DNA of 64,000 bases. Source: Anolis carolinensis (lineage: Eukaryota). Positions 1 through 64,000 of the stretch are shown piece after piece. The notes under the pieces were generated by a model, which worked only from the letters and a program-made list of their open reading frames with translations, ran no database searches and was not told where the DNA came from. The stretch is taken from contig NC_085844.1 of the NCBI RefSeq assembly GCF_035594765.1, forward strand, positions 184,714,107 through 184,778,106, given 5' to 3'. Both the position numbers and the translations under genes were made by a program. Each line of letters starts with the position of its first letter. Position 1 is the stretch's first letter.

Positions 1-609
1 TTGCATTGTCTGATATGATTTTGGCCACCACTCTGGTCAGGAGTGGGAGCGGTGGAAATGCATATAGTAGTTCTGGTACCCACGTGAAGAGGAAGGCGTC
101 TCCTAAGCAGCCTGGGGATGTGTGAGGGCGTATCCGAGTGCAAAACTGAGGACACTGTTTGTTCGTCGGGGAGGCGAAGAGGTCAACCTGAGGAACTCCC
201 CAACGTCTGGTGATGAAGCGAAACTCCCTGTGGTGGAGTTTCCATTTGTGGTTGCTGAGGGGAGTTCTGCTCAGGGAGTATGCTAGGACGTTGTCCTCTC
301 CCGGCAGGTGAATTGCTATGAGAAAGATATTCTTGCGAATGCACCATTCCCAGATTTGTGATGCGATGGAGAGGAGAGTGAGTGAGTGGGTCCCTCCCTG
401 TTTGTTTATGTAGGCTTTCACTGTTGTGTTGTCCGTGACAAGTTGGATGGCCTGGTTTTTGGTAAGGCGGGCGAAGGATTTCAGGGCCTTTTCCACGGCT
501 AGGACCTCCAAGGCGTTGATGTGGAGCTTTTGCTCTTGTGTTGACCAATGGCCATGGGCTGTTAGGTTCTGTAAGTATGTGCCCCAACCTAGTGTTGATG
601 CATCTGTTG

Positions 610-1713
610 TCAGTGAGAGTGAGGGGCGAGGAGAAATGAACGGAAGTCCCGAGCACACATTGGACCTTCTTGTCCACCATGAGAGGGAGTTGAGGACGTC
701 CTGAGGAAGAGATAGGACGATGTTTTGGTGATCTCGGATTGGGTCGAATTTCCAGACGAATCAGTTTTGTAAGGTTCGGAAGCGGAGGCGAGCGTATGGT
801 GTAACCACTGTAGTTGAGGCCATGTGGCTAAGGTTGACTGGATTGTCCGGGCGGACGCTTGTCCATGGTGGCGCAATTCAGAGACCACAGTTCTTAAGTT
901 TCTAAATCTTTCTTCTGGTAGGAAGGCCTTTTGGGATTGCGTGTCTATAAGGGCGCCAATGAAGGTGATACGTTGGGTAGGGGAAAGGTGGGATTTTTCT
1001 CTGTTGACAACGAGACCTAAGGTCTGCAAAAAAGATAAAGTGAAATGAATATCAGATTGCAATTGATCGCGGGATTCCGCTGATAAAAGCCAGTCATCCA
1101 GATACAGAAAAATCATTATGTGGTGTTGGCATAAATGGGCTGCTACTACTGACATGCATTTGGTAAAGACCCTTGGGGCTGTGGAAAGGCCGAAGGGTAG
1201 GACGTTGAATGAGTAACATGAGTCTCCTATTGTAAAGCTGAGAAATCTACGGTGATCTTCCTTAATGGAAATATGGAAATAAGCATCCCTCAAATCAATA
1301 GACGCAAGCCAGGATCCTTTCCCGATAAGGGGAAGGATGGTGGGGAGTGTCACCATGCGGAATTTACATGGTTTGATGTACAGATTAATACAGCGTAAAT
1401 CTAGGATGGGGCGAAGACAGTCACCGCATATGGTTACTAAGAAGTAACGGGAAAAATAACAGGAAGAAACGTGATGAGGAGGGACGGGGGATATTGCCCC
1501 TTTGTCAAGTAAGGAAGTTATTTCTTCAAGGAGGGGGTCTGAGGGGGAAGTGGCAGAGATGTGTCCCACGGATGGCAGGGAAAGGAATTCTATAGCATAG
1601 GCTCTTTCTATAATGTTTAGCACCCAGGCATCTGATGTGATCTGTTGCCACTGTCCAAGGTATGGAGAGAGTCTATCAACGTAAGTGTGGGTGGTAAGGG
1701 GGGGGGGGGACAC
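610..1713 (-). pseudogene. DIRS reverse transcriptase ORF (frameshifted before RNase H)
   Basis: 367-aa ORF with RT motifs including YLDD. The RNase H and MT motifs continue in other frames to position 1. Confidence 0.9.
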
Positions 1714-1766
1714 ATAGTTTGAACTGGAAAGGAGTGAGTGGTAGTAGGGGGGAGGGGCTAAAAGCG

Positions 1767-3870
1767 CTATCTCCTATTGTCTGGAGGTTTTGTTCTGTGG
1801 TACTGACCCTTCGTGAAGAGGGGTGGTCTGCGGTTGCCTGTTGAGGCAGGTTGCTGGCGTTGTCTTCCTCGAAAGGGCAGGGGACTGTAGTGGCCCCAGA
1901 AGTATTGTGGTTCATAAGGCCATCGCTGATGCTGGGAGGGGTAGGATTGGTATTGATGTTGTCCATACTTGTTGATGGTTTGTTTCATTTTATGAGAATG
2001 TTCGAGTTGGGAGTCTGTTTCCGGGTTGAAAAGTCCCGCTTCTGTCCATTGGTAAGTCTTCAATGAGGGAGCGAGCGGAGGGAGACAAGATGGTGGCTCG
2101 GAGCCATGCGTGTCTTCATAGGGCCTGCAAGGAGTTTTCCCGATGCGTCGGCAGTATTCTTTGCTAGGTCCTTTTGCAAGGCCGTGAGAGATAATGCTTC
2201 TTGTTGAAAGGCTTTGGCAAGGGTTTGTTGGTGAAGGGAAAGAGAATCAAGGAAGGATTCCATTTTGTTCCAGAGAAATTTTTGGTATACACTCATGTAT
2301 ACCCCACAGTGAGCCATACGGGTGAAGAGGCAGGCTGAAGCGTAGAACTTTTTGGCCATTGCATCAAGTTTCTTACCCTCTCTGTCTGAGGGTGTAAGCT
2401 GTGCCCTTTGAGTTGGTTTAGGTTGGGCATCTGTAACAACTGAGTTGGCCTTAGGCATTTTTGCAAGCCAAGAGGCTGTAGAAAGGTCAACCTTATAAAG
2501 GTTTTCGGCTCGTTTTGGGGTGGCTGGTACCAATGATGGAGCCATCCCCACAGTTTTAATAACTTGTAGTAAGTATGGGAGGGTTGGGAGGGCCGTGGAT
2601 GATGGGGCTTGTTGTTCAGAGGAGGAAAAGCAGGGATCTTCCACAACATTGGATGGTTTGGGAGTGGGTAGGTTAAGGGCTTTTGAGAGTCTGATGAGGA
2701 GAGCTGAGAAATTTCTAAAGTCCTCTGCCTGTTGGGGGTCTTGATCTATTTCGGTCTGAGGGGGTGCCAGTGAAGGGGTATCTCCCTCAGATACATTTAA
2801 ATCCCTGTCTTGTAGTGTGTCAGGGATGAGAGTTGTTTGAATGTGAGCTAGCTCCCTTCCTTGCTCAGGCAGATTCGATTCAGTTGCCTGGGAGGGGATG
2901 GAAGGTAGATGAGTGGGAGGCAATGCCTGTACTGTGGCTTCTGGTCGGGAGGCTGAGGCAGAAGGAGGCTGCTTGGGCACTGGAGGAGGTAGTTGGTATT
3001 GGTTTGGGTAAAAATCATAATAACAAGGAGCCCCATAGGTGAAGGGGGGTGGAGGGGGATAGGGATAAAAGAAATCAGCGTAGTAAGGGCGGTTACGGCC
3101 AGGGGAAAAAGATCTGGAGTAGGAGGATACTCTGGATGGGCTCCTAGAGTGTGAGGCCCTAGATTCGAGGAAGGGGAAGCCCACGGTATCGAGCAGCTCC
3201 TCCTGGAAGCTTTGCCTGTCTGGGGTTGAGTGAGGAGGAGGAGAATGCCGCGTCTTGTGTGGGGGAGGGTTCCGCAATTTGGCCGAGTTCATCAGGGGTA
3301 GCTTTGCTGCTTGCTTCAGTGAGAGGCTGCAAAAAGTTAACTGGAGACAAGTGGGGAGGAGTCTCCTGCGGAGAGGGCAGGTTCGGAGAGCCTCGATCCC
3401 GAGGTGTGCTTTCTCCAGCCCGGTCTTGTGGCGGGGGACTCAAGGGCTCTTCACCAGTGAGTTGCCTTCCTTTCCTGGGCTTCTTATGGCCCCCTTTGCG
3501 CCTGGCCTCTTTGGTTTTGGAAGGTTTAGCCTTTTTGCGCAGCGCTTGAGGCGCTGGATAGTCCCCGGCGTCATTCTCCTCCCTGGCTGGGAGGGAAACC
3601 TGAGTCTGGGCGTAGGAGGGAGGGGGGGAAGGCTCAGGGAGAGCCTGTTTTTGGGTGCGGGTTCCATCCGGCGCCAGGGCTTGTTCATAGAGGACCACCT
3701 TAAGGCAGGCCTCTCTGTTTCGGCGTGCTTGGGGGGCAAAAGAAAGGCAGATTGGACAGGTTTGGGGAACGTGCCCTCCCCCAAGCACAAAAGGCACATG
3801 TTGTGCATGTCTGAATCGGGCAGCTTAGCTCCGCATGAGCTACATTAAAAAAAAAAAAGACACTGCCTGA
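1767..3870 (-). pseudogene. DIRS gag-like ORF1 (N-terminal Cys/His knuckle plus LAP2alpha-like domain), several frameshifts
   Basis: CSSCGAKLPDSDMHNMCLLCLGE/HVPQTCPIC at the N-terminus, split over ORFs 3440..3808 and 3159..3797. ORF 2060..3292 and the off-frame RHAWLR..LIEDLPMD motif resemble vertebrate DIRS gag. Confidence 0.75.
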
Positions 3871-4007
3871 TTCGTGGTCAAGGTCCGGTCCAGAAAGTGG
3901 GGCAGGAGAGGGCAGCAAGTCAAGGGCAGTCCAGAGTCAAAACCGTAAGAAATCCAATAGAGAGGAGTACTAAAGGTTCCTACTGTCTGCTGTCATGCAG
4001 AAAGAAG

Positions 4008-12403: not shown

Positions 12404-14317
12404 TTATTTATTTATTTATTTATTTATTTGACTTATATACTGCTACTCCCAGTTTGGCTCGGAGCGGTTTACAGAAATAGATTAAAACCATACACTTAGC
12501 TTTAAAATGACAATAAAAACAATAAAAACAACAATAAAAACAGAAATAGCCCCGAGTTTTTCACCCATCGAAAGCTTGTCGGAAGAGTAAGGTTTTGCAG
12601 GCTTTCCGAAAGGCAAGTAGGTCTCGGATAGTTCGAGTTTCAACTGGCAAAGCATTCCATAAATGAGGGGCTACAATCAAGAAGGCTCTCTGCCTAGTAG
12701 AAGACAAATGATAAGTCTGTATGTATGTATAAGGAGCCCCCGGTGGCCAAGGGGATAAAAGCCTCGTGACTTGAAGGTTGGGTTGCTGACCTGAAAGCTG
12801 CCAGGTTCGAATCCCACCCAGGGAGAGTGCGGATGAGCTCCCTCTATCAGCTCCAGCTCCATGCGGGGACATGAGAGAAGCCTCCTACAAGGATGGTAAA
12901 ACATCAAAACATCCGGGCGTCCCCTGGGCAACGTCCTTGCAGACGGCCAATTCTCTCACTCCAGAAGCAACTCCGGTTGCTCCTGACACGGAAAAAAAAA
13001 AAAAGTCCATATGTTAGGGACTTCAAGCAAATTTTGGTCTTCGGACCGAAGTAATCTCTGGGGTTGGTAGGGGGATAAGCGGGCCCTCAGGTATGCTGGC
13101 CCCAAACCATGTAAGGCCTTAAAGGTTAGTACCAGTATTTTGAAAGTAATCCATCGGTAGCCAGTGCAGCTATTGTAGAATTGGGGTGATACGCCACATC
13201 GCCGGCACCCCGGCGAGAAGACAAGCCGCCGCATTTTGCACCAGCTTCAGTTTCCGGATCACTGACAGAGGAAGGCCAATGTAGAGGGCGTTACAGTAGC
13301 CGAGCCTTGAGATGACGTCGCCTGGATCACCGTAGCCAGGTCGTTCCTAGATAGGTAGGGAGCCAGTCGCCTAGCCTGACGTAGATGGAAAAACGCAGAT
13401 CTGCTCACAGCAGAGACCTGGGCCTCCATTGTGAGCAGAGGATCCAATAAGACACCAAGACTTTTTACAGAAGATGACGGACGTAGTGTTTCACCATCCA
13501 GGGTAAGCAGCTGGATCTCCCTCCCACCCAGCCAGAGGATCTCCGTCTTCGCTGGATTCACCCTCAACCTGCTGGCATGCAACCATCCAGTAACGGCCTC
13601 AAGGCACTGATGGAAACTATTGGGTACGGAGTGCAGCCGGCCCTCCATCCTCAGAATGAGCTGAGTGTCATCAGCGTACTGGTGGCACTCAAGCCCAAAG
13701 CTCCGCACCAGTCTGGCAAGCAGTCGCATATAGATGTTAAATAGTAGAGGAGAGAGAATAGCTCCCTGTGGGACCCCACAAGTTAGCGGAGACCTCTCGG
13801 AAACCATCCCTCCCCTCACCACCCGCTGTCCCCGATTCTGGAGGAAGGAGGACACCCATTTAAGGGGTATCCCCCTAACCCTCGTCATGGCTAGGTGGTG
13901 GGTCAATAGATTGTGATCGACCGTATCAAATGCTGCTGTGAGATCCAATAACACGAGCAGCGCTGATCCGCCTTGATCCCTTTGGCAGCGAAGCTGATCT
14001 GTGATGGCAACTAGCACAGTCTCCGTCCCGTGCCCCCTACGGAAGCCGGACTGGAAGGGATCAAGTCCAGCTGTGTCATTGAGGAACTGCTGCAACTGTT
14101 CCGCTGCTGCCCTCTCAACCACCTTGCCCAGAAACGGAAGATTCTAGACTGGGCGGTAGCTAGAGGGAACCGAACGATCTAAGTCTGGTTTCTTCAGCAG
14201 CGGAGATACCATCGCCTCTTTTAAACCCTCTGGAAAAACTCCTTGCTCAAGGGAGCTATTTATTATATTCAACAGAGGTTCACGTAATCCCTCCAGGCAA
14301 GATTTTACTAGCCAGGA
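12404..14317 (-). mobile_element. L2-clade LINE, 5'-truncated, interrupted by a SINE
   Basis: ORF 13259..14122 has LDPFQSGFR, LLDLTAAFDTVDH, GVPQGAILSPLLF and YADDTQL. C-terminal RAF..APHLWNALP...FRKACKTLLF (ORF 12561..12872). (TAAA)n tail at 12404-12428. Confidence 0.9.
12733..13004 (+). mobile_element. tRNA-derived SINE (Anolis SINE2-like) nested in L2
   Basis: GGAGCCCCCGGTGG head, B box GGTTCGAATCC, 3' cagacggccaattctctcac...cctgacac and poly(A); imperfect TSD aagtcyrtatgt. Confidence 0.8.
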
Positions 14318-19440: not shown

Positions 19441-20601
19441 GCTATCCTGAGATCCAATGACATTAGGATAGGGTATAAATAAATGCAATATTTATATAGC
19501 TGGTTTTACTGAATTTAAATTACTGTGTTGCCACCTACTTTAATAGAACAGATCAGATCTCAGAATTTAAGCACTTGGAAAAAATACAAGCAAGGCTTTT
19601 GACGTTCTTTAAACATCAAATATTACTCACTGTTCATTCTAATTATCAAAGCAAAGAACTTCCTGAGGCACACAGGTGATTCTATAATGTGAAACTTGAT
19701 TTCAGGCTGCAACTTAAAATGTGCTAAACACTAGGAAAACTTCATTTCAATGCTCTATCAATCTTGACCTTCAAGACTCACACAGCCTAAGAGACTGGAG
19801 AAATGTAAGTGCTGTTTCTACATAGGGCAGAGGGCTTGAAAATCCATTTCTTAGCTCCCTGTTAACAACTGTTCAGTTATTTGCCTAGAGGCTTTCACAT
19901 GGAAAGCTCTGTCTAACTCCAGCTGACAGCTAATAGTAGTCCAAAATTCAGAATCAAGTATTACAAAAACCATACCCTACTAAGGTTGCCCACATCAAGA
20001 AATATATTGATGCCCACAGAAATCAGAATGTTCTAAGATTTTGTTTGTTTTGCTGCTGCTCTGAGCACAGCTACTACCAGACCTTTGAAAGAATGGCTTT
20101 CAGAGGAGTGATTAGTGTACTAACATCCAACTCTAGGTATCCACGCTATAAACCAGAAGTGGGTCAGTTCTTGAAAATATTGCATTAACTGCAGCAAGGG
20201 CTAAATGAAAGTTAGCAGTGAATTCTAAGCGTTGTAGATTTGGAAGTTTAAGATAGTTGTCTTTTCTGGAAATAGTTAACATGTCCTTCATCACATAGTT
20301 CTATTAGCTATAATAGAATTTATAGATTGCCTACTCTTTTCTTAGATAGCCTTAAAAGCCTTAAAAACCTGTGTTTGTTGGACTCTTTACCTTTAAAAAC
20401 CTGAGTCTGGGCTGATTCTTGAGTGTGGGCTAGCTGTAATTAAGGCTTGCTGTTCTGCCATTGTTGGGAAGGTGAGGCAAGGCTATTGTTATTGAAAGTG
20501 TTGGCTTCCTGTTGAAGCTTTCTGAGCCACCACTACAGTAAAACACATTCTTACAGTATATATAATAAACAAAACAACTTTAAAAATACACACACAGGAA
20601 G

Positions 20602-21927
20602 GTGGATAGCATTCTGCCCATAACACACACAATCCTCCTCGGTCACTTCACTCACCAAGAGATGGACCAACAGCAAATACTTGCCACCACATGCACCAGC
20701 TGTGGCATGTTCTGCTTTTTCACACAAAAACTAGTCAACTACATCTGCTCCAAATGCAAACAGATGACTCTGATGGAGCAGAGGATCCAACAGCTCGAGC
20801 ACCGTATTAAGACCCTTAAGGACATTCAGGCGCTCGAGCTCTTCTTGGACACTGCACAACACGCTGCTATAAATCTGCAGCCTGCATCACACCAACACCA
20901 CCATGATCAGGAACCTTATGGGGAGATCAACTCAAAGGTAGACAACCCTCAGGCTTGGAAGGAGGTCACCCATAGAAGGAGACACAGGACCAGGCAGCCT
21001 CCGCAGAACTCCTCTGCTCAGCTGCATTTACACAACAGATTTGAAATTCTAACACCATTAACATACAATCAGGAAACACATCTTGTGGAGGACCACAGTT
21101 TCTTAGATACCACTCAGTGGGCCACCCTTGATCAATGCGCAGGGGATAGCCCTGACGGGGACAGTGCATCACCACATTCACACTTATGTAATCATGCAAA
21201 TGCTCCATCCCCAATCGTAGACCAGGAGCAACAGGAACATCCTTGGGAGAGTAATGGGCTCTCGGATGTATCTCAATGGATTGTCATTGATGAATGCACT
21301 GGGGATGTTGTGGAGGAGGACAACACTTTACACCTGCATGATTCACTTCAACAGGAACACTCTTCAGGGGACATACACACTGTCTTGCACAAAAGGGACC
21401 CTGTCAATCCTCAAAGGAAACAGGTCTTGGTAGTAGGTGACTCCCTCCTTAGAGGAACGGAAGCCATCATTTCCAGACCGGATGGGATGGCTCGAGAAAC
21501 ATGCTGCCTCCCGGGGGCAAAAATACACCATATCACTCAGAGGCTCAGCAGGCTCCTAAAGCCCCATCACCCTCCCCACCTTATGTTGATTCATGTAGGT
21601 ACCAATGACACCGCTAGGCATACTTTTCAAAAGATCACAAATGATTTTCGAGCTCTGGGAACAAAGCTAAAACTGTATAATGTACATGTGATCTTTTCAT
21701 CCCTCCTCCCCGTTGTAGGACACGGCTCTACAAGGGCCAGAAAAATAGTACAGGTCAATAACTGGCTCAGAAAATGGTGCCAAGAGGAGCATTTTGGCTT
21801 CCTTGACCATGGTCTACTCTTCCAGGAGGATGGCCTATTGGCAAGTGATGGGGTGCATCTCACACAAGCAGGAAAACATCTTTTTGCACACAGACTCACA
21901 AACCTCATCAGGCGCACTTTAAATTAG
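20602..21927 (+). CDS. CR1 ORF1p (zinc finger/leucine zipper plus SGNH esterase-like domain), open
   Basis: CTSCGMF...CSKC, coiled coil, VVGDSLLRG, IHVGTND, DGVHL. A likely start is the ATG of MDQQQ. Confidence 0.9.
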   Translation: MDSILPITHTILLGHFTHQEMDQQQILATTCTSCGMFCFFTQKLVNYICSKCKQMTLMEQRIQQLEHRIKTLKDIQALELFLDTAQHAAINLQPASHQHHHDQEPYGEINSKVDNPQAWKEVTHRRRHRTRQPPQNSSAQLHLHNRFEILTPLTYNQETHLVEDHSFLDTTQWATLDQCAGDSPDGDSASPHSHLCNHANAPSPIVDQEQQEHPWESNGLSDVSQWIVIDECTGDVVEEDNTLHLHDSLQQEHSSGDIHTVLHKRDPVNPQRKQVLVVGDSLLRGTEAIISRPDGMARETCCLPGAKIHHITQRLSRLLKPHHPPHLMLIHVGTNDTARHTFQKITNDFRALGTKLKLYNVHVIFSSLLPVVGHGSTRARKIVQVNNWLRKWCQEEHFGFLDHGLLFQEDGLLASDGVHLTQAGKHLFAHRLTNLIRRTLN

Positions 21928-24853
21928 ATCCACTGGGGGAGGGGAACAACAGCCTGGCGAACACTATTACCCACGACCACAGGGAACCGCCAAAAGGCTA
22001 AACGGAGGGCTGCACAAACACAGCAAGGACCAAGTACGGAGAGCACAATAATCCCAAATAAACAGCTCAAGGGGAGGTCACAGGGGCTTACATGTCTTTA
22101 CACCAACGCTCAGAGCATGGGAAATAAGCAAGACGAACTCCAACTCTTAGCACAGCACCACACATACGATGTCATAGGCATCACTGAAACCTGATGGGAT
22201 GACTCCCATCACTGGAATGTAGCCATTGAGGGCTATAACCTCTTTCACAGAAATAGAACAAAGGGGAGAGGAGGGGGAGTAGCTTTATATGTCAAAAACA
22301 GTTACGTTGCAGAAGAAATGCAAGACTGTAATCCGGGAAACCAGCTTGAAAGCATCTGGATAAGAATCAAGGGAACCGGGACTCAAAAAGATCTTGTCGT
22401 GGGTGTCTACTACAGACCTCCGAGTCAGGATGAAGGACTTGATGAAGCCTTCTGTCAACAGCTGACCAAACAGGCACAAAGAAGAGATATAGTAGTCATG
22501 GGCGATTTCAATTATTCCGATATCTGCTGGAAAACAAACTCAGCCAAGAGTACAAAGTCCAACAAATTCCTCACTTGCCTTGCAGACAATTTCATGGTCC
22601 AGAAGGTAGAAGTGGCAACAAGAGGATCAGCAACTCTTGATCTAATCTTAACAAATGTGGAAGACCTGATCAACACAGTTGAAGTGGTTGGATCCTTAGG
22701 GGCAAGTGACCATGTGCTCCTGGAGTTTGCAATACAAAGGAATGCTGAAACGAAGACAAGTCAAACACGCATTCTCGACTTTAAGAGAGCTGACTTCCAA
22801 AAAATGAAGGAATTACTGAGCGGCATTCCATGGACGCCAATATTAAAAAAACAAGGGAGTTAAGGATGGATGGGAGTTTTTCAAAAGTGAAATACTCAAG
22901 GCGCAAATGCAAACAGTGCCAACAAAGAAGAAAAATAAGACAAGTGCAAAGAAGCCAGAATGGATGTCCAAAGAACTTCTAACTGAGCTAAAGCTCAAAA
23001 GTGACATGCACAAGAAGTGGAAAAGGGGAGAAATCACCAAAGAAGAATTCAAACGTATAGCCAACACCTGTAGGGAAAAGGTTCGCAAGGCTAAAGCACA
23101 AAATGAGCTCAGGCTTGCCAGGGACATAAAAAACAACAAAAAAGGCTTTTTTGCTTACGTTGGTAGAAAAAGGAAGAAAAAGGAGGCGATAGGGCCTCTG
23201 CAAGGAGAAGATGGGGTGATGGCGACAGGGGACAGGGAAAAGACAGAACTGCTCAATGCCTTCTTTGCCTCGGTCTTCTCACAAAAAGAAAGCCATCTTC
23301 AACCTCAGCAACATCGAATAGACGAAGGATTGGGGGAAATCCAACCCCAAATAGGGAAACAAGCTGTCCAGGAACACCTGGCCTCTCTAAACGAATTCAA
23401 GTCCCCTGGGTCAGATCAGCTACATCCAAGAGTATTGAAGGAATTAGCGGAAGTTATTTCAGAACCACTAGCAATTATCTTCGAGAGTTCTTGGAGAACG
23501 GGAGAAGTCCCAGCAGATTGGAGGAGGGCGAATGTGGTCCCTATCTTCAAGAAGGGGAAAAAGAACGACCCAAACAATTACCGTCCGGTCAGCCTCACAT
23601 CGATACCAGGCAAGATTCTGGAAAAGATCATCAAGGAAGTGGTCTGCGAACACTTAGAAACAAATGCGGTCATTGCTAATAGTCAACACGGATTTACCAA
23701 AAACAAGTCATGCCAGACTAATCTGATCTCTTTTTTCGATAGAGTTACGAGTTGGGTCGATACAGGGAATGCTGTGGATATAGCCTACCTGGATTTCAGT
23801 AAGGCCTTCGACAAAGTCCCCCACGACCTTCTGGCAAATAAACTAGTAAAATGTGGGCTAGACAAAACTACGGTTAGGTGGATCTGCAATTGGCTAAGCG
23901 AACGAACCCAAAGGGTGCTCACCAATGCGTCATCTTCATCATGGAAATAAGTGACAAGTGGAGTGCCGCAGGGCTCCGTCCTGGGCCCGGTTCTGTTCAA
24001 CATCTTTATTAACGACTTAGACGAAGGGTTAGAAGGCACGATCATCAAGTTTGCAGACGACACAAAACTGGGAGGGAGAGCCAACACTCCAGAAGACAGG
24101 AGCAGAATTCAAAACGATCTTGACAGACTAGAGAGATGGGCCGAAACTAACAAAATGAAGTTCAACAGGGACAAATGCAAGATACTTCATTTCGGCAGAA
24201 AGAATGGAAATCAAAGATACAGAATGGGGGACGCCTGGCTTGACAGCAGTGTGTGCGAAAAAGACCTTGGAGTCCTCGTGGACAACAAGTTAAACATGAG
24301 CCAACAATGTGATGCAGCAGCTAAAAAAGCCAACGGGATTCTGGCCTGCATCAATAGGGGAATAGCGTCTAGATCCAGGGAAGTCATGCTCCCCCTCTAT
24401 TCTGCCTTGGTCAGACCACACCTGGAATACTGCGTCCAATTCTGGGCACCACAGTTGAAGGGAGATGTTGACAAGCTGGAAAGCGTCCAGAGGAGGGCGA
24501 CTAAAATGATTAAGGGTCTGGAGAACAAGCCCTATGAGGAGCGGCTTAAAGAGCTTGGCATGTTTAGCCTGCAGAAGAGAAGGCTGAGAGGAGACATGAT
24601 AGCCATGTACAAATACGTGAAGGGAAGTCATAGGGAGGAGGGAGGGAGCTTGTTTTCTGCTGCCCTGCAGACTAGAACACGGAACAATGGCTTCAAACTA
24701 CAGGAAAGGGGATTCCACCTGAACATCAGGAAGAACTTCCTCACTGTGAGGGCTGTTCAACAGTGGAACTCTCTCCCCCGGGCTGTGGTGGAGGCTCCTT
24801 CCTTGGAGGCTTTTAAGCAGAGGCTGGATGGCCATCTGTCGGGGGTGCTTTGA
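21928..24853 (+). pseudogene. CR1 ORF2 (APE endonuclease plus RT) with three lesions
   Basis: CLYTNAQSMGNK, ITET*WD (TGA 22192), MGDFN, SDH; +1 frameshift in the A-run near 22845-22851; TAA at 23948; [15 protein letters not shown]. Confidence 0.92.
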
Positions 24854-37551: not shown

Positions 37552-40500
37552 AATGAATGAATGAATGAATGAATGGTTTATTGTACTAGCCATAGGCCAT
37601 GACATCAGTAATATACAACCTTTATAAACACTTTCCAATATAAACATTAAAACTTATTCAAAAATTAAAACTTGCTCTTTAAAATTATGAAAGCAGCAAC
37701 ATAACAATGACAGTGTCTGATTTGTATCATCCCAGACCATCACCATTTCCATTTCTGACCTCGAGTATGGATTTTGCTACTTTAGCTCTGATCTTTTGGG
37801 CTGCAATTGCAAATGTGGCAACCTTTAGTGTTATGTTTTTGGAATAATCTGCTAGCAAGTCACAGATCACAGCAGATTGTTGCCATGCTGCCCTTTCTTC
37901 CAAGAGTGTTCCCAGGAGATTTTTCCTAGGATCCTTATACAAGGGGCAGTGTAGCAGATAGTGTGTTAGATCTTCTTTTTCCCCTGTGCCACAAATGCAA
38001 AGTCGTTGGACATGGGGGATCCCTCTGTATCTTCCCTCTAGCCAGTTTGATGGCATTGTTTGGAAGCGCAGGGCTGTAAATGCTTTCCTCAGGACTGCAG
38101 ACGTTAGGTCTTGAAGATATTGCTGACAATATTGGTCACTCTTTAGTCGGGGATACCAGGTAGAGAAACCTTGCTGTTTACTAATCTGCAGGTTGTCAGC
38201 TGCGTCCATCTCAAAGATTTTATCTCTGATCGTCTTCTTGTCCAGATGCATTAGAGTTGTTGTTGACCCATCAAAATACTGATGGAGCAAGGCTTGCCAG
38301 TATTGAACCCACCCTCCTTGCTTATGCTGCTCCATCATGCATTGCTTTGTTATACGCTCATCCTCCATTCCCAGAAGTCTCTTCCCGTATGAGATGTTAA
38401 GCTTATGCATTCTGGCCTTAAGTGAGGGAAGATCCAATTCAAGCCTTAACAAGGCACCTGGGGTCCCAGGGGGAAGGGCTAAAAGAGCTCTTGCAAACTT
38501 GTTCTGAATACATTCAACCTGTTTTGTATTACCCTGTCCCCAAATTTCTGCTCCGTATAACAGCTGAGGTAAAATCTTAGCAGCAAAAATCTTTACTGTG
38601 GGACATACCAAGGAGCCTCCCTTTGTTTTCCCAAAGGCTAGGATTGATTTCACTGACCTCCAAGCAGATAATTTGGCTGCCTCTATATGGCTCTTCCAGT
38701 TCCCATTATATGAGAAGTGTATGCCCAGGTATTTAAAGCTATGACACTGCTCTATTGAGTGGCCATCCAATTTCCATGTATGTATTTGCTTCCTTTTGGA
38801 AAATACTATCACTTTGGTTTTAGAGTGATTGATCATCAGCTTTTCTTGTTCACAGCTTCTACTTAGTGACCTCAAAAGTCTCCTGAGACCTATTTGCGTA
38901 GTTGACAGGAGGACCATGTCATCCGCGTACAACAAGACTTGGATTTTCCTACTACCTCCTAATGGAGGGAAGTGGTCAGGGGAGCTCAACTCGGCAACTA
39001 GATTATTTATGTAGAAATTAAACAGAAAAGGTGCTAGCAAGCAGCCTTGCCTAACTCCTCTTTTTGTTTCAATGTTGCTCGATAGCTTGCCTGACAGACC
39101 TAACCTCACTCTTAGGTCTGTCCCCGAATATAGCTGATGCAATAATGACAACAGTCGTCTATCCACATTAGTCTTCGCCAACTTTTCCCACAAACGCTGT
39201 CTGTCAATTAAGTCAAAAGCTGAGGTAAAATCCACAAATGCCGTGTATAGGCGTCCCTTTGGTTTCTTCAGACTATTTTGGATTAGGTGTGAAAGCACAA
39301 AACATTGGTCTATTGTGCTTCTGCCTTGCCGAAATCCGGCCTGTTCTTCTGCAATAATATTATTCTCCTCTGCCCAGCTATGTAATTTATTTAACAGAAA
39401 CCTACCATAGATTTTTGACACTACATCCAACAGGCTAATAGGTCTATAATTGCGTGGGTCCATCCTATTGCCTTTTTTATATAAAGGGACAATTATACTA
39501 GTTTTCCACCCATTTGGGATGATTCCTGTCTGGTTGATATATGTAAACGGTCTGGCCAGGATGGGAGCCCACCAGGTGATGTTACATCTAAACAATTCGG
39601 GAGGTAGCATATCCTCTCCTGGGGCTTTTCCTGTTTTTAATTTTTGAAGCAGGCCTTCGATTTCCTCTGGAGAAACTGGTGTCCAATCAGGGGGGTCAAT
39701 GGGTCTAGACACATCCTTGGCAGTCTCTGGGTCACTGAATATTTCTCTAAAATAAGTTTCCCATGTAGGTGCTGCAATTTGAGAGTCTAAATGAGGTTGC
39801 AAGGGCCTTAGCCCTGAATGCACCATATTCCAGAATTTGACCTCATCCTTTTGCCTAACTGCCAGATCCAGCTTTATCCAATTTTGCCTGTTGAATTCAA
39901 GTTTCTTCCTTTTTAGTAGGGTTTTATATTGTGAACGGGTTTCACTCAGGCTTTTATAATTTTGTTCAGTCCCATTTTTGTTGGCTGCTCTGATGGCCAG
40001 GGATAGGATCTTTTTTTGGCTCCTGCATTCTGCATCGAACTAGCTTCCCTTACTGGACTTGTTGACTTTGGTTGGTTCTGTGTGAATCAGGTATGGTTTA
40101 AGGGAGGTAATAATTTGCTGATAACCCTCTATTGGGTCAATAGTACATTTGAGTATCTTCTCTCTGCAAGTTTCCAGAATAGGTCCATTAAGTAGGTCTA
40201 TAACCTTATCGCTCAAGGGCTCCGACCACTTGAGTCGTCTGGGTCCCATGGAGACCAGGTCCAGATGATAATTATTTGACACTCTGTGCTGCTCTACGTC
40301 TGTTTTTATGACTAGTTTAATGGGGTGATGGTCACTTTCCGGACGTATGTCCACTATAAAAGTTTTGACTGCTGGCAACAACCCAGGTGAGATTATAAAA
40401 TAATCTAGAACACTTCCCCCCCTTACTGAGTGATAAGTGTATAGTCCGGATGACTCCTCTAGATGGCTGCCATTCATGATTAATAAAAAATGTTTATAGG

Positions 40501-41410
40501 CTAGTAAGAAAAGTTCCAGCCCATTCTTATTAAATTTCACATCTCTTGAGTTTCTATTAAGTGAGAATTGATTTTCTAAATAAAACCCAAAATACTGAGC
40601 TAGATCCTCATTTGATTTTCCCATCCTCGCATTAAAATCACCTCCTAAAACAATGTTTGTATTTTCCAAGCCACTGGTCCTATCTTCCAAGGCTGTATCT
40701 AAAAACCGCCACACCTCTTTGGCAGAATATGCTGAATTTACTGGAGGCACATAAACATTAATACAAAATAAAACCTGGTTATCCTTGAGTTTTATCTCTA
40801 CAGCTAATATATTATTGTTAGACTTATTAGTCACAATTTGACACTCAGCATCTAGCTCGACTGAAACAAAAACTGCTAAGCCCCCACAGCAGCGCCCCCA
40901 CTTATGTCGCCTTGCAGCAGGCACTGCAAAACTTCTAAAACCCTGCAAATTAAGATTTGAGGTTTCTTCCACCCAAGTTTCCTGTAACATTATAATAGAG
41001 AACTGTAAATATTCTACAAACTCTTTATCCACTAGTTTTCCGGCCCATCCAGATATATTCCAGGACAGCATCTTTAGCTCCTTTGCTGTTTTCGTTTTTA
41101 TATGGTTGTTCAAGCCAGAATCAATTGGGTGTGATTCAGCATGCCTAAGTTCTACTAGTTTATTGTGCTGTCTCTTAGTCAGATTTGATAACCCTCCTGT
41201 CCTCTGACGACTGACTATCTGGATAACCCTATTTTTGAGTGAATGAATAGAGTTTTCCTCTGCAGGGACCTTTGCCTTATCCTCTTTATTTCCAGGCACT
41301 GTAGGTGGAAAGAATTGAGTGATTGAGGTCTGTTTCAAACCACAATTTCTGTTTGCTGGTGTAATTCTCATGTGCGGCCCTACCTTTTCAGCCCTCCTAT
41401 CTGGCCTTCA
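37552..41410 (-). mobile_element. RTE-X-like LINE, truncated just upstream of ORF2
   Basis: 7-bp TSD TGCTATG (37545-37551 and 41411-41417); AATAAA plus (CATT)n tail; complete APE-RT-zinc knuckle ORF2. Clade assignment from motif style only. Confidence 0.85.
37727..41371 (-). pseudogene. LINE ORF2 (~1214 codons) with one in-frame TAG at 40040-40042
   Basis: ORFs 40040..41371 (SWNISGW, LQETW, GGDFNAR, LDY, SDH) and 37727..39826 (QAGFR, FVDFTSAFD, GVRQG, YADD, CICG..ED..H....C) are in one frame; the 71 codons between them are open. Confidence 0.92.
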
Positions 41411-52800: not shown

Positions 52801-53065
52801 GCTGCTCATTAGCCATCATGAATGGATATGTATGTACATCATTATGAGTATGTGTGCATCATAGGAATGACCTGTAAGAGTGTCCTGGTGTGTACAAAAT
52901 GTAGTGTGGGAAGCAGCCATTAGTCTAAACTACAGGTTGGAGGACATGATTGCTACTGAAGATTAACAATTTTTTGTTCTTAAGCACCAAAAAGTGATAA
53001 CAACCGGACTGGGTAATTTTCCGTCTACAGCCCATCTCAGCAATACTCCACATTGGCCCTCTTAC

Positions 53066-53198
53066 CTCTGAAACCTCCTTCTAAGAGGGTAGTAGCACGT
53101 ATCCTCTTCTGTCCACACCATTCATATTCTTCAAAGCGATTACCATTCTCATTTTCAATGTCAACAGAGTCATCTTCCATCATGCATGAACCTTCCCT
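53066..53198 (-). CDS. RNF220: RNF220 coding exon (133 nt): REGSCMMEDDSVDIENENGNRFEEYEWCGQKRIRATTLLEGGFR(G)
   Basis: Diagnostic RNF220 FEEYEWCGQKRIRAT motif; cag acceptor, gtaaga donor; phases 0/1. Confidence 0.97.
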
Positions 53199-54168
53199 CT
53201 GGGTAGCCAAAGAAAATGAAACATCAAGCATCATCGCATGTTCTTGCATATAAGAAGGATGCTAACAGGTAGTATTTATGTTAGTGAAAACTGCAAAGAT
53301 CAAGTGGATGGTGGAGGACCTTGCAGGGACAATCATCCCCCTCCCCATTAATTGCTGCATTTAAAGTGCTAATTTGAAACTGGGGCTTCACATCATTTTG
53401 CATTATTACTGACTTTATAATCAAGACAAGTAAATGAATTTAGGATTTCTTGGCCCATTTTCAACATCCCACTGTCTAGTTAAAGCTTAAAGTGGTAGGC
53501 AAGGCACTAATTTTTCATCACTCTTCTACTTTAACAAAGAACTACAAGTTTAAGAACGTGAAAAAGTCAAGCTACTACAAGAAGGGGAACAGACACCATT
53601 TTTCAGGATCACCAATGCTAGGTTTCGCAAAAAAGGATTTAATTTTTTTTTCTTCCTAATGGCAAGACATGAATAGCCTGTCACTCTACTGCTATGTATG
53701 TTCAATTATACAGGCAAAATAGCTAAAGTAACTACAGTCACACCAGCAGTGCATTTCAGTCCCTGGTTACCAATATCAAAAGTTGCTATAAGATCCAACA
53801 GGACTAGAATAAGCTTTATTGATATATTCTCCCAAATTATTCCCCGATACAAAGACTAGAAGCACATTGTTAGAACATGTATTGTTGGGCACATTATATT
53901 CGAGGGCAATTCCATTTTTTGTAATGTACACCTTCAAAATTCTGGTGCGGATTACATTTGATGGTGCATTATACTTGAGTAAATACAGTAATTTAGCCAA
54001 AAAGAAAAAGAAGAAGACGTGAGCATCGGGCTTGAGTAAATATGGTATATGTCAACATGTTTTATCTTGAACTAAGAATAGCTGGACTTAACTTTCCTGG
54101 CCAATTCCTCTTCAATCCAGGCCTCAACTGAGTTTTGCTTCAGTACTGTTAAATCACAACCTAGCAAG

Positions 54169-54280
54169 TTTCCAATATACCTCACAACCTCTGAAGATGC
54201 TTGCCACAGATGTGGACGAAACATCAGGAGATAATGCTTCTGGAACATGGCCATACAGTCTGGAAAACTCACAACAACCA
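54169..54280 (+). mobile_element. Penelope-like element short insertion with a degenerate hammerhead ribozyme
   Basis: 11-bp TSD AACCTAGCAAG (54158-54168 and 54281-54291); cct-CTGAAGA-stemII-GAAA-catc-agg. Confidence 0.8.
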
Positions 54281-54509
54281 AACCTAGCAAGAGTTGAGAA
54301 CCTACTCCCCATTCTCATTTGAAAGGTTAGAAAGATCCTATTGCCATGACTGAGAGAGATTAAAGTCTTTAAGATAGAAAGGAAGTACGAAATAGGCATT
54401 CAAGCCTGTGTCCTTCAACCTGCTAACTTGGTTTCTGTCCAGAAAGCAGGCATAGCAGAAGGCAGGGAGAGAGAAGTGAGAAGAAGCAAAGATCTTTCAG
54501 TGCTTCTAC

Positions 54510-54631
54510 CTTTGCAAGGCATTGTTCGACATGCCCACTCCTCTCCTCCTCGGATCCTGAGAGAGGCTGGCTGCAGAGGGGACATACCTGTCCTTCGTCT
54601 TGCTTCCTCCGTTTCATTTTCCCAATTCGAG
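54510..54631 (-). CDS. RNF220: RNF220 coding exon with two donors: 44 nt (54588-54631, (A)RIGKMKRRKQDEGQ) or 122 nt (adds VCPLCSQPLSGSEEERSGHVEQCLAK)
   Basis: ctccttgcgcag acceptor; donors CAG|gtatgt (54587) and AAG|gtagaa (54509), 78 nt apart, both phase 0. Confidence 0.93.
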
Positions 54632-60700: not shown

Positions 60701-61639
60701 GCTTAGGCATGATTTCTGGAACGCACAAGCTAGAATATAATAGAAGACCAGAAATCAAAGTACAGGCATCTGTAATATTCTTGATGGGAACACAAAGTTA
60801 TCTATTCTCTTCTAGTCTGCAGCAATGGCAATAATTTGGTACAAGATATTCCTAACATAACTGTCATCTTCATTTTTAATACCAACCTGTGTGTATGTGC
60901 CTTCAAGTTAGGCAATGAATACGATGATTTTGTCCGTTCCTTCTTTTGTAATATAGCCTACAGCACCTGGCATTTATTGGTGGTCTCTAATCCAATTAGT
61001 AATCAGGAATGGCCCTGCGAGGTTCCAAGATCAGATAAGATCTTGGAATTGCCAAGTCTAACCCTACCAATCTTTTCTGCAACTAACCCATTTCCCTTCA
61101 TATATGCTACTACCACAGCAAACAATTTATTTTCATTTTCTTTAGAGTGGCATTCTATGTTGCTAGATACACACTGTCCATTTCACTCTTTCCTGAAGGT
61201 CACTTGTATGTAAAAGTGACCTTGCAGTTCTCCAAGGTTGTATGAAAATCAATGGTTTTGACCAAATTCTTACAAGAAACTATCTAGAAAAAGAAAGTGT
61301 CATGGGTCATGCCGCTGCCGACCCCAACGTTTCTGTGAAAACGGGCAGTACGATGTTTTCCCTCCAGTCATTTAAAAATGGGGTGGGTGGGAATGCACCC
61401 ATCCAGATTTAGTTGAATTGCAGCTCCCACAAGAACTAGCTAGCATAGCCAATGGTGAGATACTGACAGTTGGAGTTCAACAATATCTCAAAGGCTGAAC
61501 ATTTCCCATGCCCGAATTAGAGAATTCTTAAAAACATCCAAAAAGGAATGAAAGTAAAAATATATTCTGCCACTTACAACTGGGTGGTAACCTACAATCA
61601 AAGGAATCTGATCTACTTACATGCTATAACCAAGGGATA

Positions 61640-62780
61640 TGTTATGATTGAGCCTCATGGCTCTGTTACTGGCAGACGTGGGCGTAAGACTCCTCGAGAG
61701 TCAGATACTCTCGAGGAGCGAGAAAGAAAGAGACTGCGAGATATCTTTGCAGCACCATCTGATGAAGAGTCTTTTGAGGGGTTTACGGAGAGAATGGAGG
61801 AGGGGCTGGTTAGCTCGGAGGAGGATGAGATGGATTGGACTCGGGTGAGGGAGGAATTGGGTGCCACTGGCAATGATGGGATGGAAGATGAATGGGGACC
61901 TTCAGGATTAGACCCATGGACAAGCTGGAGGGATGGGACGGGATCCACAGCTGGGGATGCTGTGGGGCGTAGTCAGAGGTGTTCCAGCTCTGATGAGGAA
62001 AGTGATGAGGAAACGCCCGGGTTAAGGAGGGCAGCTGATAGTGATGAGGATTTGTAACTGGCATAAAATGAGGCTTGGGAGCAATTGCAAATTGCGTTGG
62101 GCAAGGTAATCTGGACGAACGCTTGGGATCTGTGTGGGACGCTTTCCTGAAGACTGGTGTGTTTTCGTGTGCTGATACGTAAGTTGTTTTGGAATTTGGG
62201 GTCAGACGGCGGGAGGAATTGTGTGGGCTTTTGTTTGTGCAAACTTGTGCTTAATCTCATTAGCTTTGACCTTCCGTCGTCTTCTTGACGGACGCCATCT
62301 CCTGCTTTGGATTTCGGACTGAACTGACCACGGCTTGACTTCCCCCCTACTCGGACTTGGTGAAACTACAAACGTCTGCTTCTGGCTTGAACTACGGAAA
62401 GGAACTGGGTCTACTCTACTGCTTCAATCCTCGGCTGACCTGTGTGTATTGGAAATCTTGCCTGCTGTGTGGAGGAGTGACTCAAGTTACTCAAAGCACA
62501 GTGCTGGCAGCAGAGAGGAATCTGCTGCCAATTAATTGCATTCTTTTGAACACTTTGTTCCCCGGCTTCTGTTTTGTTTATCCCCAGGCTGAAGCAAGCT
62601 GTTTTGTTTTTACCCGGATTAAACTCCGGTTTAATCCGGTTTATCTTTTGAACGTTTTTCCTTGCCCCTTTTTGCTTTTAAAGGCTAATACTGCCTGGCC
62701 CTTGTATTTTACGGGCATTTTGAGTTCTGTTATCCAATAAACTCTGTTATCTTTGATCTTGTGGCGTTCTGTCTTTGACA
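61640..62780 (+). mobile_element. Solo LTR (1141 bp), probably Gypsy/Metaviridae-type
   Basis: TGTTA...TGACA termini; perfect 5-bp TSD GGATA (61635-61639 and 62781-62785); CATAAAA box 62062-62068; AATAAA 62736-62741; CpG-rich, so young. Confidence 0.9.
61644..62057 (+). CDS. LTR (U3)-encoded acidic ORF, 137 aa, with basic patches and an FxGF LEDGF/TND-interacting-like motif
   Basis: Open from the LTR's first bases to TAA just before the TATA-like box; RRGRK and ERERKRLR, then DIFAAPSDEESFEGF, then several S-D/E tracts. Coding status is inferred. Confidence 0.6.
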   Translation: MIEPHGSVTGRRGRKTPRESDTLEERERKRLRDIFAAPSDEESFEGFTERMEEGLVSSEEDEMDWTRVREELGATGNDGMEDEWGPSGLDPWTSWRDGTGSTAGDAVGRSQRCSSSDEESDEETPGLRRAADSDEDL

Positions 62781-64000
62781 GGATATAACTAATTTAACTG
62801 TTTTCTGAATTAAGGCAAGGATGGTCCTGTTTGACCTGCAGCAGTATATAAGAAACAAACACATGTTCAGTGGAGTTTTTAAAAACTATAAATAAATATA
62901 ATCAAGCATAGGTATTAATAGGAGTAACATAGAGCAACAGCATAGCCTACCAGAATTTTAGACTCAAGTTCACTGTCATCCTAACAGCAAGGCTAGCTAA
63001 TGATTCTAAAATCCTATGATATTTAGCTGCCACAAAATAAAAGGCAAGTTTCACACCTGAAAGTTGGAAGAGATTCACGACAAAGTAAAAAGTACTGAGA
63101 TTATACTAGAATATCATTTAGACACGAAGAGCTGAAACAAAGACAAACAACTGCTTCAGATAACATTAGGCTACAATGTAAAGCTGGAAGTCCAAATTTT
63201 AAATAATTTGAGTCGGTGAACCACCTACTATCCAGGCACAGCCTTGAGGGCATCACTCTAGCTCATCCCTAATGAGCTTCTAAAGGTTAGCTAAGACTGA
63301 GTTATCTTGTATGGTCTTTGGTTGTTAACTGTTTAAAATTGTGTGTTGTTTTATTTCTAGTGTTTTAAACATTATTTATATGTGTTGTACACTGCTTCAG
63401 GAAACATGTAGGCTGAGAAGTAATAAACAAATATTTCAGTAATTAAAAAAGCAACTTCTATAGACTACAGCTCACAGTGTTCTGTGGAGCCAATTAAACA
63501 GGGATTAATTTTAACTACAGTTAGTGGGAAGGTAAACTTGAATGTTTAAAATGTTAGTTTGTTTCAATTCACTATAGTAGTTATGATAATCCACAGAAAG
63601 GGTTCACTTAATATGTTAGATGATAGTTAATTTAAAAAACAAGTGAACACTTCTAATTGACTCCTTGTGGGGATGGTATGGGGAGAGGGAGAATACAAGC
63701 TTAAGGCTTCCTGGGGTTCATTAACATTACACCACTATTTAGTATTATGCCTGATATGCAGTAAGTTTGGCAAAGGCCAGTCTGTTTTCAAAAATCACTA
63801 AGAGCTTTTTAAGCTCTTGGAAAAATATTAGTATTTCTGCAATACGCATTTTCAATAGCAGCGCCTAGTGTCACAAGGGAATATGTGTGAGACGATCAAT
63901 AGATGGAATGCAGCAGAAGGATTCATTAATCATATACCAAAATTATTCAGTAGGCGAAAGACTTTTGTGGTTTGTATATGTGAAAGGCAGATCACATGTA

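What the first reader, a model, noticed from the sequence alone, without database searches (positions are those of the whole stretch)
61640..62068. ORF fills U3 from the LTR edge to the TATA box: integrase tail or accessory protein
Seen: the frame is open from the first LTR base (..T GTT ATG) and stops at 62057, four bases before CATAAAA, so all of the putative U3 upstream of the promoter is coding. Inference A: in the full element pol reads through the polypurine tract into the 3' LTR, making this a ~138-aa integrase C-terminal targeting tail, as in Ty5-Sir4 or MLV-BET tethering. Inference B: a separate Nef/Sag-like U3 gene starting at ATG 61644. It lies upstream of the LTR promoter, so this solo copy probably does not express it.
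Basis: partly seen in the sequence, partly recalled or inferred. Interest (0 to 1): 0.7.

Follow-up and report, generated by a model that had tools for sequence, protein, structure and literature searches.

The report
Lizard retrotransposon tail mimics LEDGF partners
This open reading frame is the last 138 amino acids of the integrase of a lizard jumping gene that has lost its usual chromatin-reading domain and instead carries a short motif resembling those host proteins use to dock on LEDGF, the factor HIV uses to insert into active genes; the binding itself is untested.

Summary
Observation confirmed; inference A is right. Window 61640-62780 is a solo LTR (TG...CA, 5-bp TSD GGATA) of an Anolis carolinensis Ty3/Gypsy chromovirus-lineage family. 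In database Pol proteins the frame runs RT-RNaseH-integrase-SH3 through the PPT position into this ORF: 25 of 38 family proteins carry the full tail in frame, and one contains the window's 137 residues exactly. The family has no chromodomain, although it nests among chromodomain-bearing squamate elements, which also appear to read 96-116 residues into their LTRs. New here: tail residues 25-47 have the anatomy of a TND-interacting motif (helix, 8-residue acidic Ser linker, FxGF), the type that binds LEDGF/HRP2. They match JPO2 motif 1 at 12 of 19 positions (E 1.5, not significant alone), FxGF is kept in 24 of 24 distinct tails, and a related Anolis sequence family has two to three such units in tandem. 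Best reading: an LTR-encoded integrase tether that replaced the chromodomain and docks on LEDGF/HRP2, favouring active gene bodies. Binding and insertion bias are untested. The architecture parallels plant CRM group A; the LEDGF-type motif was not found in my literature searches.

The parts
61635..61639 (+). left 5-bp target-site duplication GGATA
   Evidence: sequence
61640..62780 (+). solo LTR (1141 bp) of an Anolis Ty3/Gypsy chromovirus-lineage family; 5' end fits Sushi att motif TGTYANR, 3' end fits CNTNACA at 6 of 7 letters
   Evidence: depth edges; motifs from PMC3601003 Table 3
61641..62057 (+). U3 ORF: 138 codons plus stop; in full elements the C-terminal tail of Pol/integrase
61674..61715 (+). 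basic, Ser/Thr-Pro segment (P0001 residues 11-24); possible NLS or chromatin-binding stretch (inference)
   Evidence: 96% mean identity across 24 distinct tails
61716..61784 (+). TND-interacting-motif-like segment (P0001 residues 25-47): predicted helix, acidic linker 36-43 with Ser39 in a CK2-type context, FxGF at 44-47
61836..61859 (+). second predicted helix with WTRV (residues 65-72); in the related sequences P0043/P0176 this helix leads into a further FxGF-like unit, here it does not
61917..61979 (+). conserved WxxWRD block (residues 92-112), role unexplained
62062..62068 (+). putative TATA-like box CATAAAA (unverified)
62736..62741 (+). AATAAA polyadenylation signal close to the LTR 3' end, as in Sushi LTRs
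   Evidence: PMC3601003 passage
62781..62785 (+). right target-site duplication GGATA
54510..54631 (-). host context: internal RNF220 exon about 7 kb from the LTR (LTR antisense, probably intronic)
   Evidence: Pfam PF15926 positions 100-135, E 1.8e-5; next exon near 53061-53186, E 2.4e-15

Best explanation
The ORF is the C-terminal tail of the integrase of an Anolis chromovirus-lineage Gypsy family, encoded in U3 of the LTR and translated from the 3' LTR of the genomic RNA as part of Pol (SHOWN at the level of annotated in-frame proteins). The family lost the ancestral chromodomain (SHOWN absent; loss inferred from the tree). The disordered acidic tail carries a host-type TND-interacting motif (helix - acidic linker - FxGF; anatomy SHOWN). 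INFERRED: the motif binds the integrase-binding domain (TND) of LEDGF/PSIP1 or HRP2/HDGFL2, probably tightened by CK2 phosphorylation, and so tethers the pre-integration complex to H3K36me2/3 chromatin, shifting insertion from chromodomain-read heterochromatin towards transcribed gene bodies. The window copy is a solo LTR that keeps the frame only because it is young.
For: In-frame fusion: (30 of 38 with junction, 25 with full tail; confidence in this step about 0.97). No chromodomain in 8 of 8; only 32 residues between SH3 and LTR start in P0002 against 94 and 100, holding a chromodomain, in P0046 and P0047. 88 of 116 non-family rows list PF00385 (counted by hand); the family sits inside a squamate group with chromodomain elements at SH-aLRT 99 (quick tree). 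Motif: matches the TIM definition in PMC9987994; AlphaFold2 helix 23-35 is the best-supported part of the model; sole PDB hit at E<=10 is LEDGF IBD-JPO2 M1, 12 of 19 identical, ungapped, again top with the profile. F, G, F invariant in 24 of 24 distinct tails (66-100% identical to P0001) and in the 38%-identical P0043. P0043 has two strict motifs (0 of 200,000 shuffles reach two) and P0176 three FxGF. Strict motif absent from 131 non-family proteins, 153,053 residues. Coding constraint: 0 of 12 listed common indels fall in the ORF (36.5% of the LTR; p 0.004), 6 of 12 listed substitutions synonymous against 22-28% expected (p 0.03-0.08).
Against: No binding or targeting evidence. The JPO2 match is not significant by score (E 1.5 and 0.72); P0043 alone gave 9 unrelated hits at E 0.27-1.9 and not JPO2. 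The motif pattern was chosen after seeing the sequence, so the 77 of 200,000 shuffle figure overstates rarity. Conservation does not single out the TIM: residues 11-24 (0.96) and 92-112 (0.97) are as conserved. The constraint tables are truncated: 5 indels and 54 substitutions were hidden; if all 5 hidden indels lay in the ORF, p 0.37; excluding homopolymer indels, 0 of 7, p 0.04. Gene models favour intact frames; 5 of 30 junction-bearing proteins have short or shifted tails. The DNA of a full element was not seen, so the PPT is read from the protein junction. The tail could be cut off by the protease. Found only in Anolis carolinensis.
Confidence: 0.55

Rival explanations
1. Integrase tail with a real TIM, but for another TND partner or purpose (IWS1, TFIIS, ELOA, MED26, PNUTS; or chromatin retention, protection from silencing, or a protease-released peptide), without a LEDGF-type effect on insertion sites.
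For: TIM helices are shared across TND partners (PMC9987994). Other blocks of the tail (basic 11-24, WTRV, WxxWRD) are equally conserved and unexplained.
Against: The review states that FxGF is the hallmark of LEDGF and HRP2 partners and that many other TIMs lack it; the closest solved motif is a LEDGF partner; the position replaces a targeting domain, as the CR motif does in CRM group A.
Confidence: 0.2
2. Functional integrase tail whose work is done by other features (nuclear import by the basic segment, general acidic histone-binding or DNA mimicry, the Trp motifs); the FxGF match is a by-product of a purine-rich, acidic sequence.
For: 28% Asp+Glu, G-rich U3; PDB match not significant; sister squamate tails have no FxGF but an RRSAR motif.
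Against: Two to three helix-acidic-FxGF units in P0043/P0176 with different x residues and linkers; invariance of F, G, F across a 38% identity gap; none in 131 other proteins.
Confidence: 0.17
3. Passive read-through: loss of the chromodomain left pol open into U3; the frame is kept only because copies are young and U3 is poor in stops.
For: Read-through seems older than the motif (P0046, P0047, P0050 extend 96-116 aa); tail diverges faster than the integrase core (63-86% against 90-97%); another Anolis family (P0122, P0138, P0140) has neither chromodomain nor tail.
Against: Frame and end point kept between subfamilies down to 63% tail identity with in-frame length changes only; indel and synonymous patterns; block-wise conservation with P0043.
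Confidence: 0.05
4. A separate U3 accessory gene from ATG 61644 (Nef/Sag-like), made from a spliced or internally started RNA, is the main product.
For: Met1 is kept in 24 of 24 tails; P0043 and P0176 gene models start at the matching Met.
Against: The ORF is in frame with pol with no stop between; the ATG is part of the att motif TGTYANR; in P0043/P0176 the first FxGF lies 9 residues after that Met with no room for its helix, which suggests upstream Pol sequence supplies it (inference).
Confidence: 0.03

Closest known systems
Plant CRM clade group A chromoviruses (CR motif; Beetle, CRM, CRR)
   Same: [quoted passage not shown]
   Different: Plant, centromere-directed, partner unidentified in those papers; here a vertebrate (squamate) lineage, a separate origin by the tree, and a motif resembling ligands of an active-chromatin reader. 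Sequence likeness to the CR motif was not tested.
Vertebrate Sushi-like (V-clade) chromoviruses, e.g. P0046 (Podarcis), P0047/P0050 (Anolis)
   Same: RT-RNaseH-IN-SH3 53-58% identical; Sushi-type LTR ends and 3'-proximal AATAAA; same G-D-[SG]-V-M junction with 96-116 aa extension. The name V-clade is recalled.
   Different: They keep PF00385; their extensions have RRSAR and no FxGF; this family lacks the chromodomain and has the TIM-like tail.
Cellular LEDGF/HRP2 ligands with an IBD-binding motif (JPO2/CDCA7L, IWS1, KMT2A, PogZ, MED1, ASK; Drosophila JIL-1)
   Same: Helix, acidic Ser/Thr linker, FxGF in a disordered region; 12 of 19 identity to JPO2 M1 of PDB 6EMO.
   Different: Those are host proteins with measured binding (PogZ is transposase-derived, recalled); this one is on a mobile element's integrase and is untested.
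Lentiviral integrase-LEDGF tethering
   Same: Proposed outcome: integrase tied through the LEDGF/HRP2 TND to H3K36me3 gene bodies.
   Different: HIV-1 integrase binds through a folded cleft between protomers, independent of phosphorylation; here it would be linear-motif mimicry, encoded in the LTR.
Ty1 IN-AC40, MLV IN-BET, Ty5 IN-Sir4 tails
   Same: Short motif in a flexible integrase C-terminal tail that binds a host chromatin factor (Ty1: search listing and abstract start; MLV: passage; Ty5: recalled).
   Different: Different partners and element classes; I recall none as being encoded inside the LTR.

Membership tests
Ty3/Gypsy LTR retrotransposon (solo LTR) | TG...CA ends, short TSD, no internal sequence at this locus | tested here: met
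Ty3/Gypsy LTR retrotransposon (solo LTR) | Cognate Pol order PR-RT-RNaseH-IN, no env seen | tested here: met
   P0002, P0007 Pfam order; P0073 adds Gag. Full element DNA not seen.
Chromovirus lineage (Sushi-like) | RT-RH-IN groups with chromodomain-bearing elements; GPY/F-SH3 module | tested here: met
   quick tree, SH-aLRT 99, 47 rows, no non-chromovirus outgroup, no bootstrap; PF24626
Chromovirus lineage (Sushi-like) | Chromodomain at integrase C-terminus | tested here: not met
   0 of 8 at E<=0.1; so chromovirus by descent only
Plant CRM group A | Coding region extends into 3' LTR and replaces the chromodomain | tested here: met
Plant CRM group A | Membership of the plant CRM clade | tested here: not met
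   groups with squamate elements, (no named CRM element was in the tree)
Plant CRM group A | CR motif sequence; centromeric location | not tested
   no CR profile and no genome available
TND-interacting motif (LEDGF/HRP2 type) | Helix with F/V/L/I anchors | tested here: met
   predicted helix 23-35 with L31, I34, F35; single-sequence model, mean pLDDT 59.6
TND-interacting motif (LEDGF/HRP2 type) | Acidic linker of 8-16 residues with Ser/Thr | tested here: met
   residues 36-43, Ser39 in S-x-x-E context
TND-interacting motif (LEDGF/HRP2 type) | FxGF | tested here: met
   residues 44-47; 24 of 24 distinct tails
TND-interacting motif (LEDGF/HRP2 type) | Disordered context | tested here: met
   no Pfam family, no strands, pTM 0.19; low confidence of a single-sequence model is weak evidence
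TND-interacting motif (LEDGF/HRP2 type) | Binding to a TND | not testable with these tools
   no TND protein was among the session's sequences
Nef/Sag-like separate U3 gene | Reading frame separate from pol/env | tested here: not met
   in frame with pol
Nef/Sag-like separate U3 gene | Own spliced or internally promoted RNA | not testable with these tools
   only assembled contigs were served; they cannot show starts, strand or splicing of a high-copy repeat

The most novel reading that the evidence does not exclude
A vertebrate Gypsy retrotransposon has independently hijacked LEDGF/HRP2, the HIV integration cofactor, by evolving (or capturing from a JPO2-like host gene) a host-type linear motif inside its LTR, multiplying it in a related family, and dropping its chromodomain, so switching from heterochromatin to active gene bodies. 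More widely, U3 of squamate chromoviruses would be an interchangeable cassette of host-motif mimics on the integrase (TIM here, HMGN-like RRSAR in sister families), because U3 is rewritten into both LTRs at every cycle.
Probability: 0.4. Interest if true: 0.88.

Novelty: new variant of a known kind. Interest (0 to 1): 0.72.

Why it matters
LEDGF/HRP2 tethering is described as a lentiviral trick done with a folded interface. A retrotransposon doing it by linear-motif mimicry would be a second, independent solution and would show that TIMs can be exploited by mobile DNA. It also names a candidate partner for an LTR-encoded, chromodomain-replacing integrase tail, the class whose plant example (the CR motif) had no known partner in the papers read. 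The Anolis genome holds a natural matched comparison: a large family with the TIM-like tail and no chromodomain (clusters of 46 and 75 proteins) beside a close family with a chromodomain (clusters of 366 and 94), so the prediction of opposite chromatin preferences can be tested from existing assemblies and one peptide-binding assay.

Tried and rejected
No whole genome is held for the window, so no full element DNA, copy census, LTR dating or insertion-site analysis. Pfam: no family for P0001 at E<=1. phmmer on 1.84 billion representatives: 4 hits, of which P0042 (icefish tandem repeat, E 5e-5, 6 stretches) was rejected as a compositional match. Profile search for the tail in longer proteins: 9 hits, all Anolis carolinensis; only the top 8000 candidates were scored, so absence in other species is weak. 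The Pol belonging to P0043/P0176 was not found; P0176 is fused to a LINE-type RT, so that these are LTR tails of a sister family is inferred from sequence likeness. ESM Atlas: nothing at 0.8 or above. No RNA holder on record was listed; no statement on expression is made. Run X2 has almost no cover in the flanks; not interpreted. My first conservation script had a faulty junction pattern (that part discarded) and was redone. The careful tree did not finish; the quick tree is cited (P0064 dropped for short coverage, 47 of 48 rows). The RNF220 location (n = 1, antisense) and the gene models that contain LTR pieces (P0009, P0010) are not taken as evidence of gene-body targeting. No complex prediction was made: no LEDGF/HRP2 sequence was among the session's proteins. 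Tesina et al. 2015 is not held. Scan notes: nothing found.

Full report
1. The observation. Window 61640-62780 is a 1141-bp solo LTR with TG...CA ends and a 5-bp target-site duplication GGATA; it has no second copy in the window. The frame beginning at 61641 is open to TAA 62055-62057, four bases before CATAAAA at 62062; AATAAA lies at 62736, near the 3' end. The other two + frames hold 4 and 18 stops; 24 of 20,000 shuffles and 22 of 20,000 Markov simulations gave an equally long frame. Contigs from 4 of 4 public runs pile up inside the LTR and fall to depth 50 or less outside it, and contigs from X1 and X11 cross both junctions without differences. The ends fit the Sushi att motifs TGTYANR and, at 6 of 7 letters, CNTNACA, and Sushi LTRs also have AATAAA near the 3' end (PMC3601003, passages). 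The TATA assignment is unverified.

2. What the ORF is. A search of longer proteins with the 137-aa product P0001 gave 8 hits among 827 candidates, all named Anolis carolinensis. P0002 (1110 aa; cluster of 46), P0007 (75) and P0006 (4) are Gypsy Pol proteins in which RT, RNase H, integrase zinc finger, core and SH3 are followed in frame by ...RGDS|VM... and then the tail. Of 38 family proteins examined (out of clusters of which one search listed 34 of 125 members), 30 have this junction, 25 have a tail of 130 aa or more (24 distinct), 5 have short or shifted tails, and 8 lack the junction (some end early, shift before it or are LINE chimeras; three were not inspected). P0024 contains P0001 exactly. 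Gene model P0017 carries the tail sequence at both ends of one element, with one difference in about 82 residues, as expected for an LTR. The ATG that prompted inference B lies within the att motif.

3. The chromodomain is gone. None of 8 proteins has PF00385 at E<=0.1; P0002 has 32 residues between SH3 and the LTR Met, whereas P0046 (Podarcis) and P0047 (Anolis) have 94 and 100 with a chromodomain. Of 116 non-family relatives listed, 88 carry PF00385 (hand count). In a quick IQ-TREE of 47 RT-to-SH3 regions the family nests with P0046/P0170, a partial Gekko protein and P0047/P0050 (SH-aLRT 99; no bootstrap, midpoint root, careful search unfinished). P0046, P0173, P0174, P0047 and P0050 share the G-D-[SG]-V-M junction and run on 96-116 residues (5 of 7 squamate relatives checked). 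So read-through into the LTR appears older than the chromodomain loss (inference from protein junctions).

4. The tail. It is 28% Asp+Glu, has no Pfam family and is modelled as disordered with helices at 23-35 (best confidence), 41-54 and 65-74 (single-sequence AlphaFold2, mean pLDDT 59.6). Residues 25-47 fit the TND-interacting motif as defined in PMC9987994 (passages): an anchoring helix, an acidic Ser/Thr linker of 8-16 residues (here 8, Ser39 in a CK2-type context) and FxGF, which that review says is present in all known LEDGF and HRP2 partners. The only PDB sequence of 177,635 matched at E<=10 is the LEDGF IBD-JPO2 M1 fusion 6EMO, over exactly these residues, 12 of 19 identical without gaps (E 1.5); with a five-sequence profile it is first of 2 (E 0.72). 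These scores are not significant: P0043 alone gave 9 unrelated hits at E 0.27-1.9 and not 6EMO. The weight comes from elsewhere. F44, G46 and F47 are invariant in 24 of 24 distinct tails (66-100% identical to P0001), and the strict pattern [DE]x[DE]xFxGF occurs in none of 131 non-family proteins. Two further Anolis sequences, P0043 (38% identical) and P0176, carry the unit in tandem: FxGF at residues 9 and 63 in both, and at 103 in P0176 (FVEF in P0043); 0 of 200,000 shuffles of P0043 1-143 gave two strict motifs. Their Pol was not found. Against a special role, residues 11-24 and the WxxWRD block 92-112 are as conserved as the motif and remain unexplained.

5. Constraint on the frame. Tails diverge faster than the integrase core (63-86% against 90-97% relative to P0025) yet keep frame and end point; gene models are biased towards this. 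In run contigs, 0 of 12 listed common indels fall in the ORF, which is 36.5% of the LTR (p 0.004; 0 of 7 outside homopolymers, p 0.04; 5 rows hidden, worst case p 0.37), and 6 of 12 listed ORF substitutions are synonymous against 22-28% expected (p 0.03-0.08; 54 rows hidden). This is moderate support.

6. Mechanism. Shown: fusion to integrase, absence of the chromodomain, motif anatomy and conservation. Inferred: genomic RNA ending in the 3' LTR is translated through U3; the tail stays on integrase; the motif binds the TND of LEDGF or HRP2, whose PWWP domains read H3K36me2/3; the pre-integration complex is thereby held on transcribed genes. Overall confidence 0.55 (fusion alone 0.97). Rivals: another TND partner or purpose 0.20; function in other parts of the tail 0.17; passive read-through 0.05; separate accessory gene 0.03. 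This copy lies antisense about 7 kb from an internal RNF220 exon; none of 99 minus-strand frames of 25 aa or more between 54,700 and 64,000 (15 overlapping the LTR left out) matched the earlier part of the RNF220 profile, so it is probably intronic, though small exons would be missed. One site says nothing about targeting.

7. Comparison and novelty. The architecture is that of plant CRM group A, where pol extends into the 3' LTR and a CR motif of unidentified partner replaces the chromodomain (PMC3059260 and PMC3605345, passages); this family is not a CRM member. The proposed outcome is that of lentiviral LEDGF tethering, but HIV-1 integrase uses a folded cleft, not the unstructured motif of host partners (PMC10854676, PMC8149907, passages). 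The FxGF-LEDGF-domain link is conserved to Drosophila JIL-1/JASPer (PMC6877644, passages). In searches, judged from listings and abstract starts (some listings showed only the top 15-30 of many papers), I saw no report of a TIM or FxGF motif in a retrotransposon integrase or of this Anolis tail; 'TND-interacting motif' had zero occurrences in the 30 retrotransposon/integrase papers listed, and the TND review has no 'transpos' word. The library lacks most subscription papers and repeat-database notes, where the LTR overlap may be recorded. No supplements were read. Verdict: new variant of a known kind; interest 0.72.

Noticed in passing
proteins P0046, P0173, P0174, P0175 (Podarcis), P0047, P0050 (Anolis): Chromodomain-bearing sister elements end in 96-116 aa extensions, probably LTR-encoded, with an RRSAR motif resembling the HMGN nucleosome acidic-patch core RRSARLSA (PMC12480509 passages). 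A second candidate host-motif mimic on a squamate integrase tail.
   Followed up: partly
proteins P0043 (XP_016852620.1), P0176: Related Anolis sequences with two to three tandem helix-acidic-FxGF units; presumed LTR ORF of a sister family whose Pol was not found.
   Followed up: partly
proteins P0122, P0138, P0140: Another Anolis Gypsy family that stops 21 residues after the start of the HPVFH motif, with neither chromodomain nor tail, on a separate branch near Crotalus chromodomain elements: a second chromodomain loss.
   Followed up: partly
window 61917-61979 and 61836-61859: WxxWRD and WTRV blocks are conserved as far as P0043 and have no assigned role.
   Followed up: no
window 62175-62266: A common LTR variant lacking about 85-90 bases here is seen in contigs of all 4 runs.
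   Followed up: no
window 62782 to 61638 (run X2 contig): A contig joins the LTR end back to the LTR start with a few letters between: tandem LTRs or a circle-type junction.
   Followed up: no
window 53061-54631, minus strand: Two RNF220 exons; the gene runs on the minus strand and probably spans the LTR.
   Followed up: partly
window 1-4000: G-rich block (GC skew about +0.3) whose minus strand looks like a DIRS-type retrotransposon (recalled resemblance, not tested).
   Followed up: no
window 20584-24853 (+), 37727-41407 (-), 13259-14143 (-): LINE copies: one with a GDSL esterase ORF1, endonuclease and RT in pieces; one with long endonuclease and RT frames; one RT fragment.
   Followed up: no
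proteins P0009, P0010: Host gene models (glucosidase II alpha; OGFRL1 isoform X4) that include pieces of this family, implying insertions in or beside those genes.
   Followed up: no
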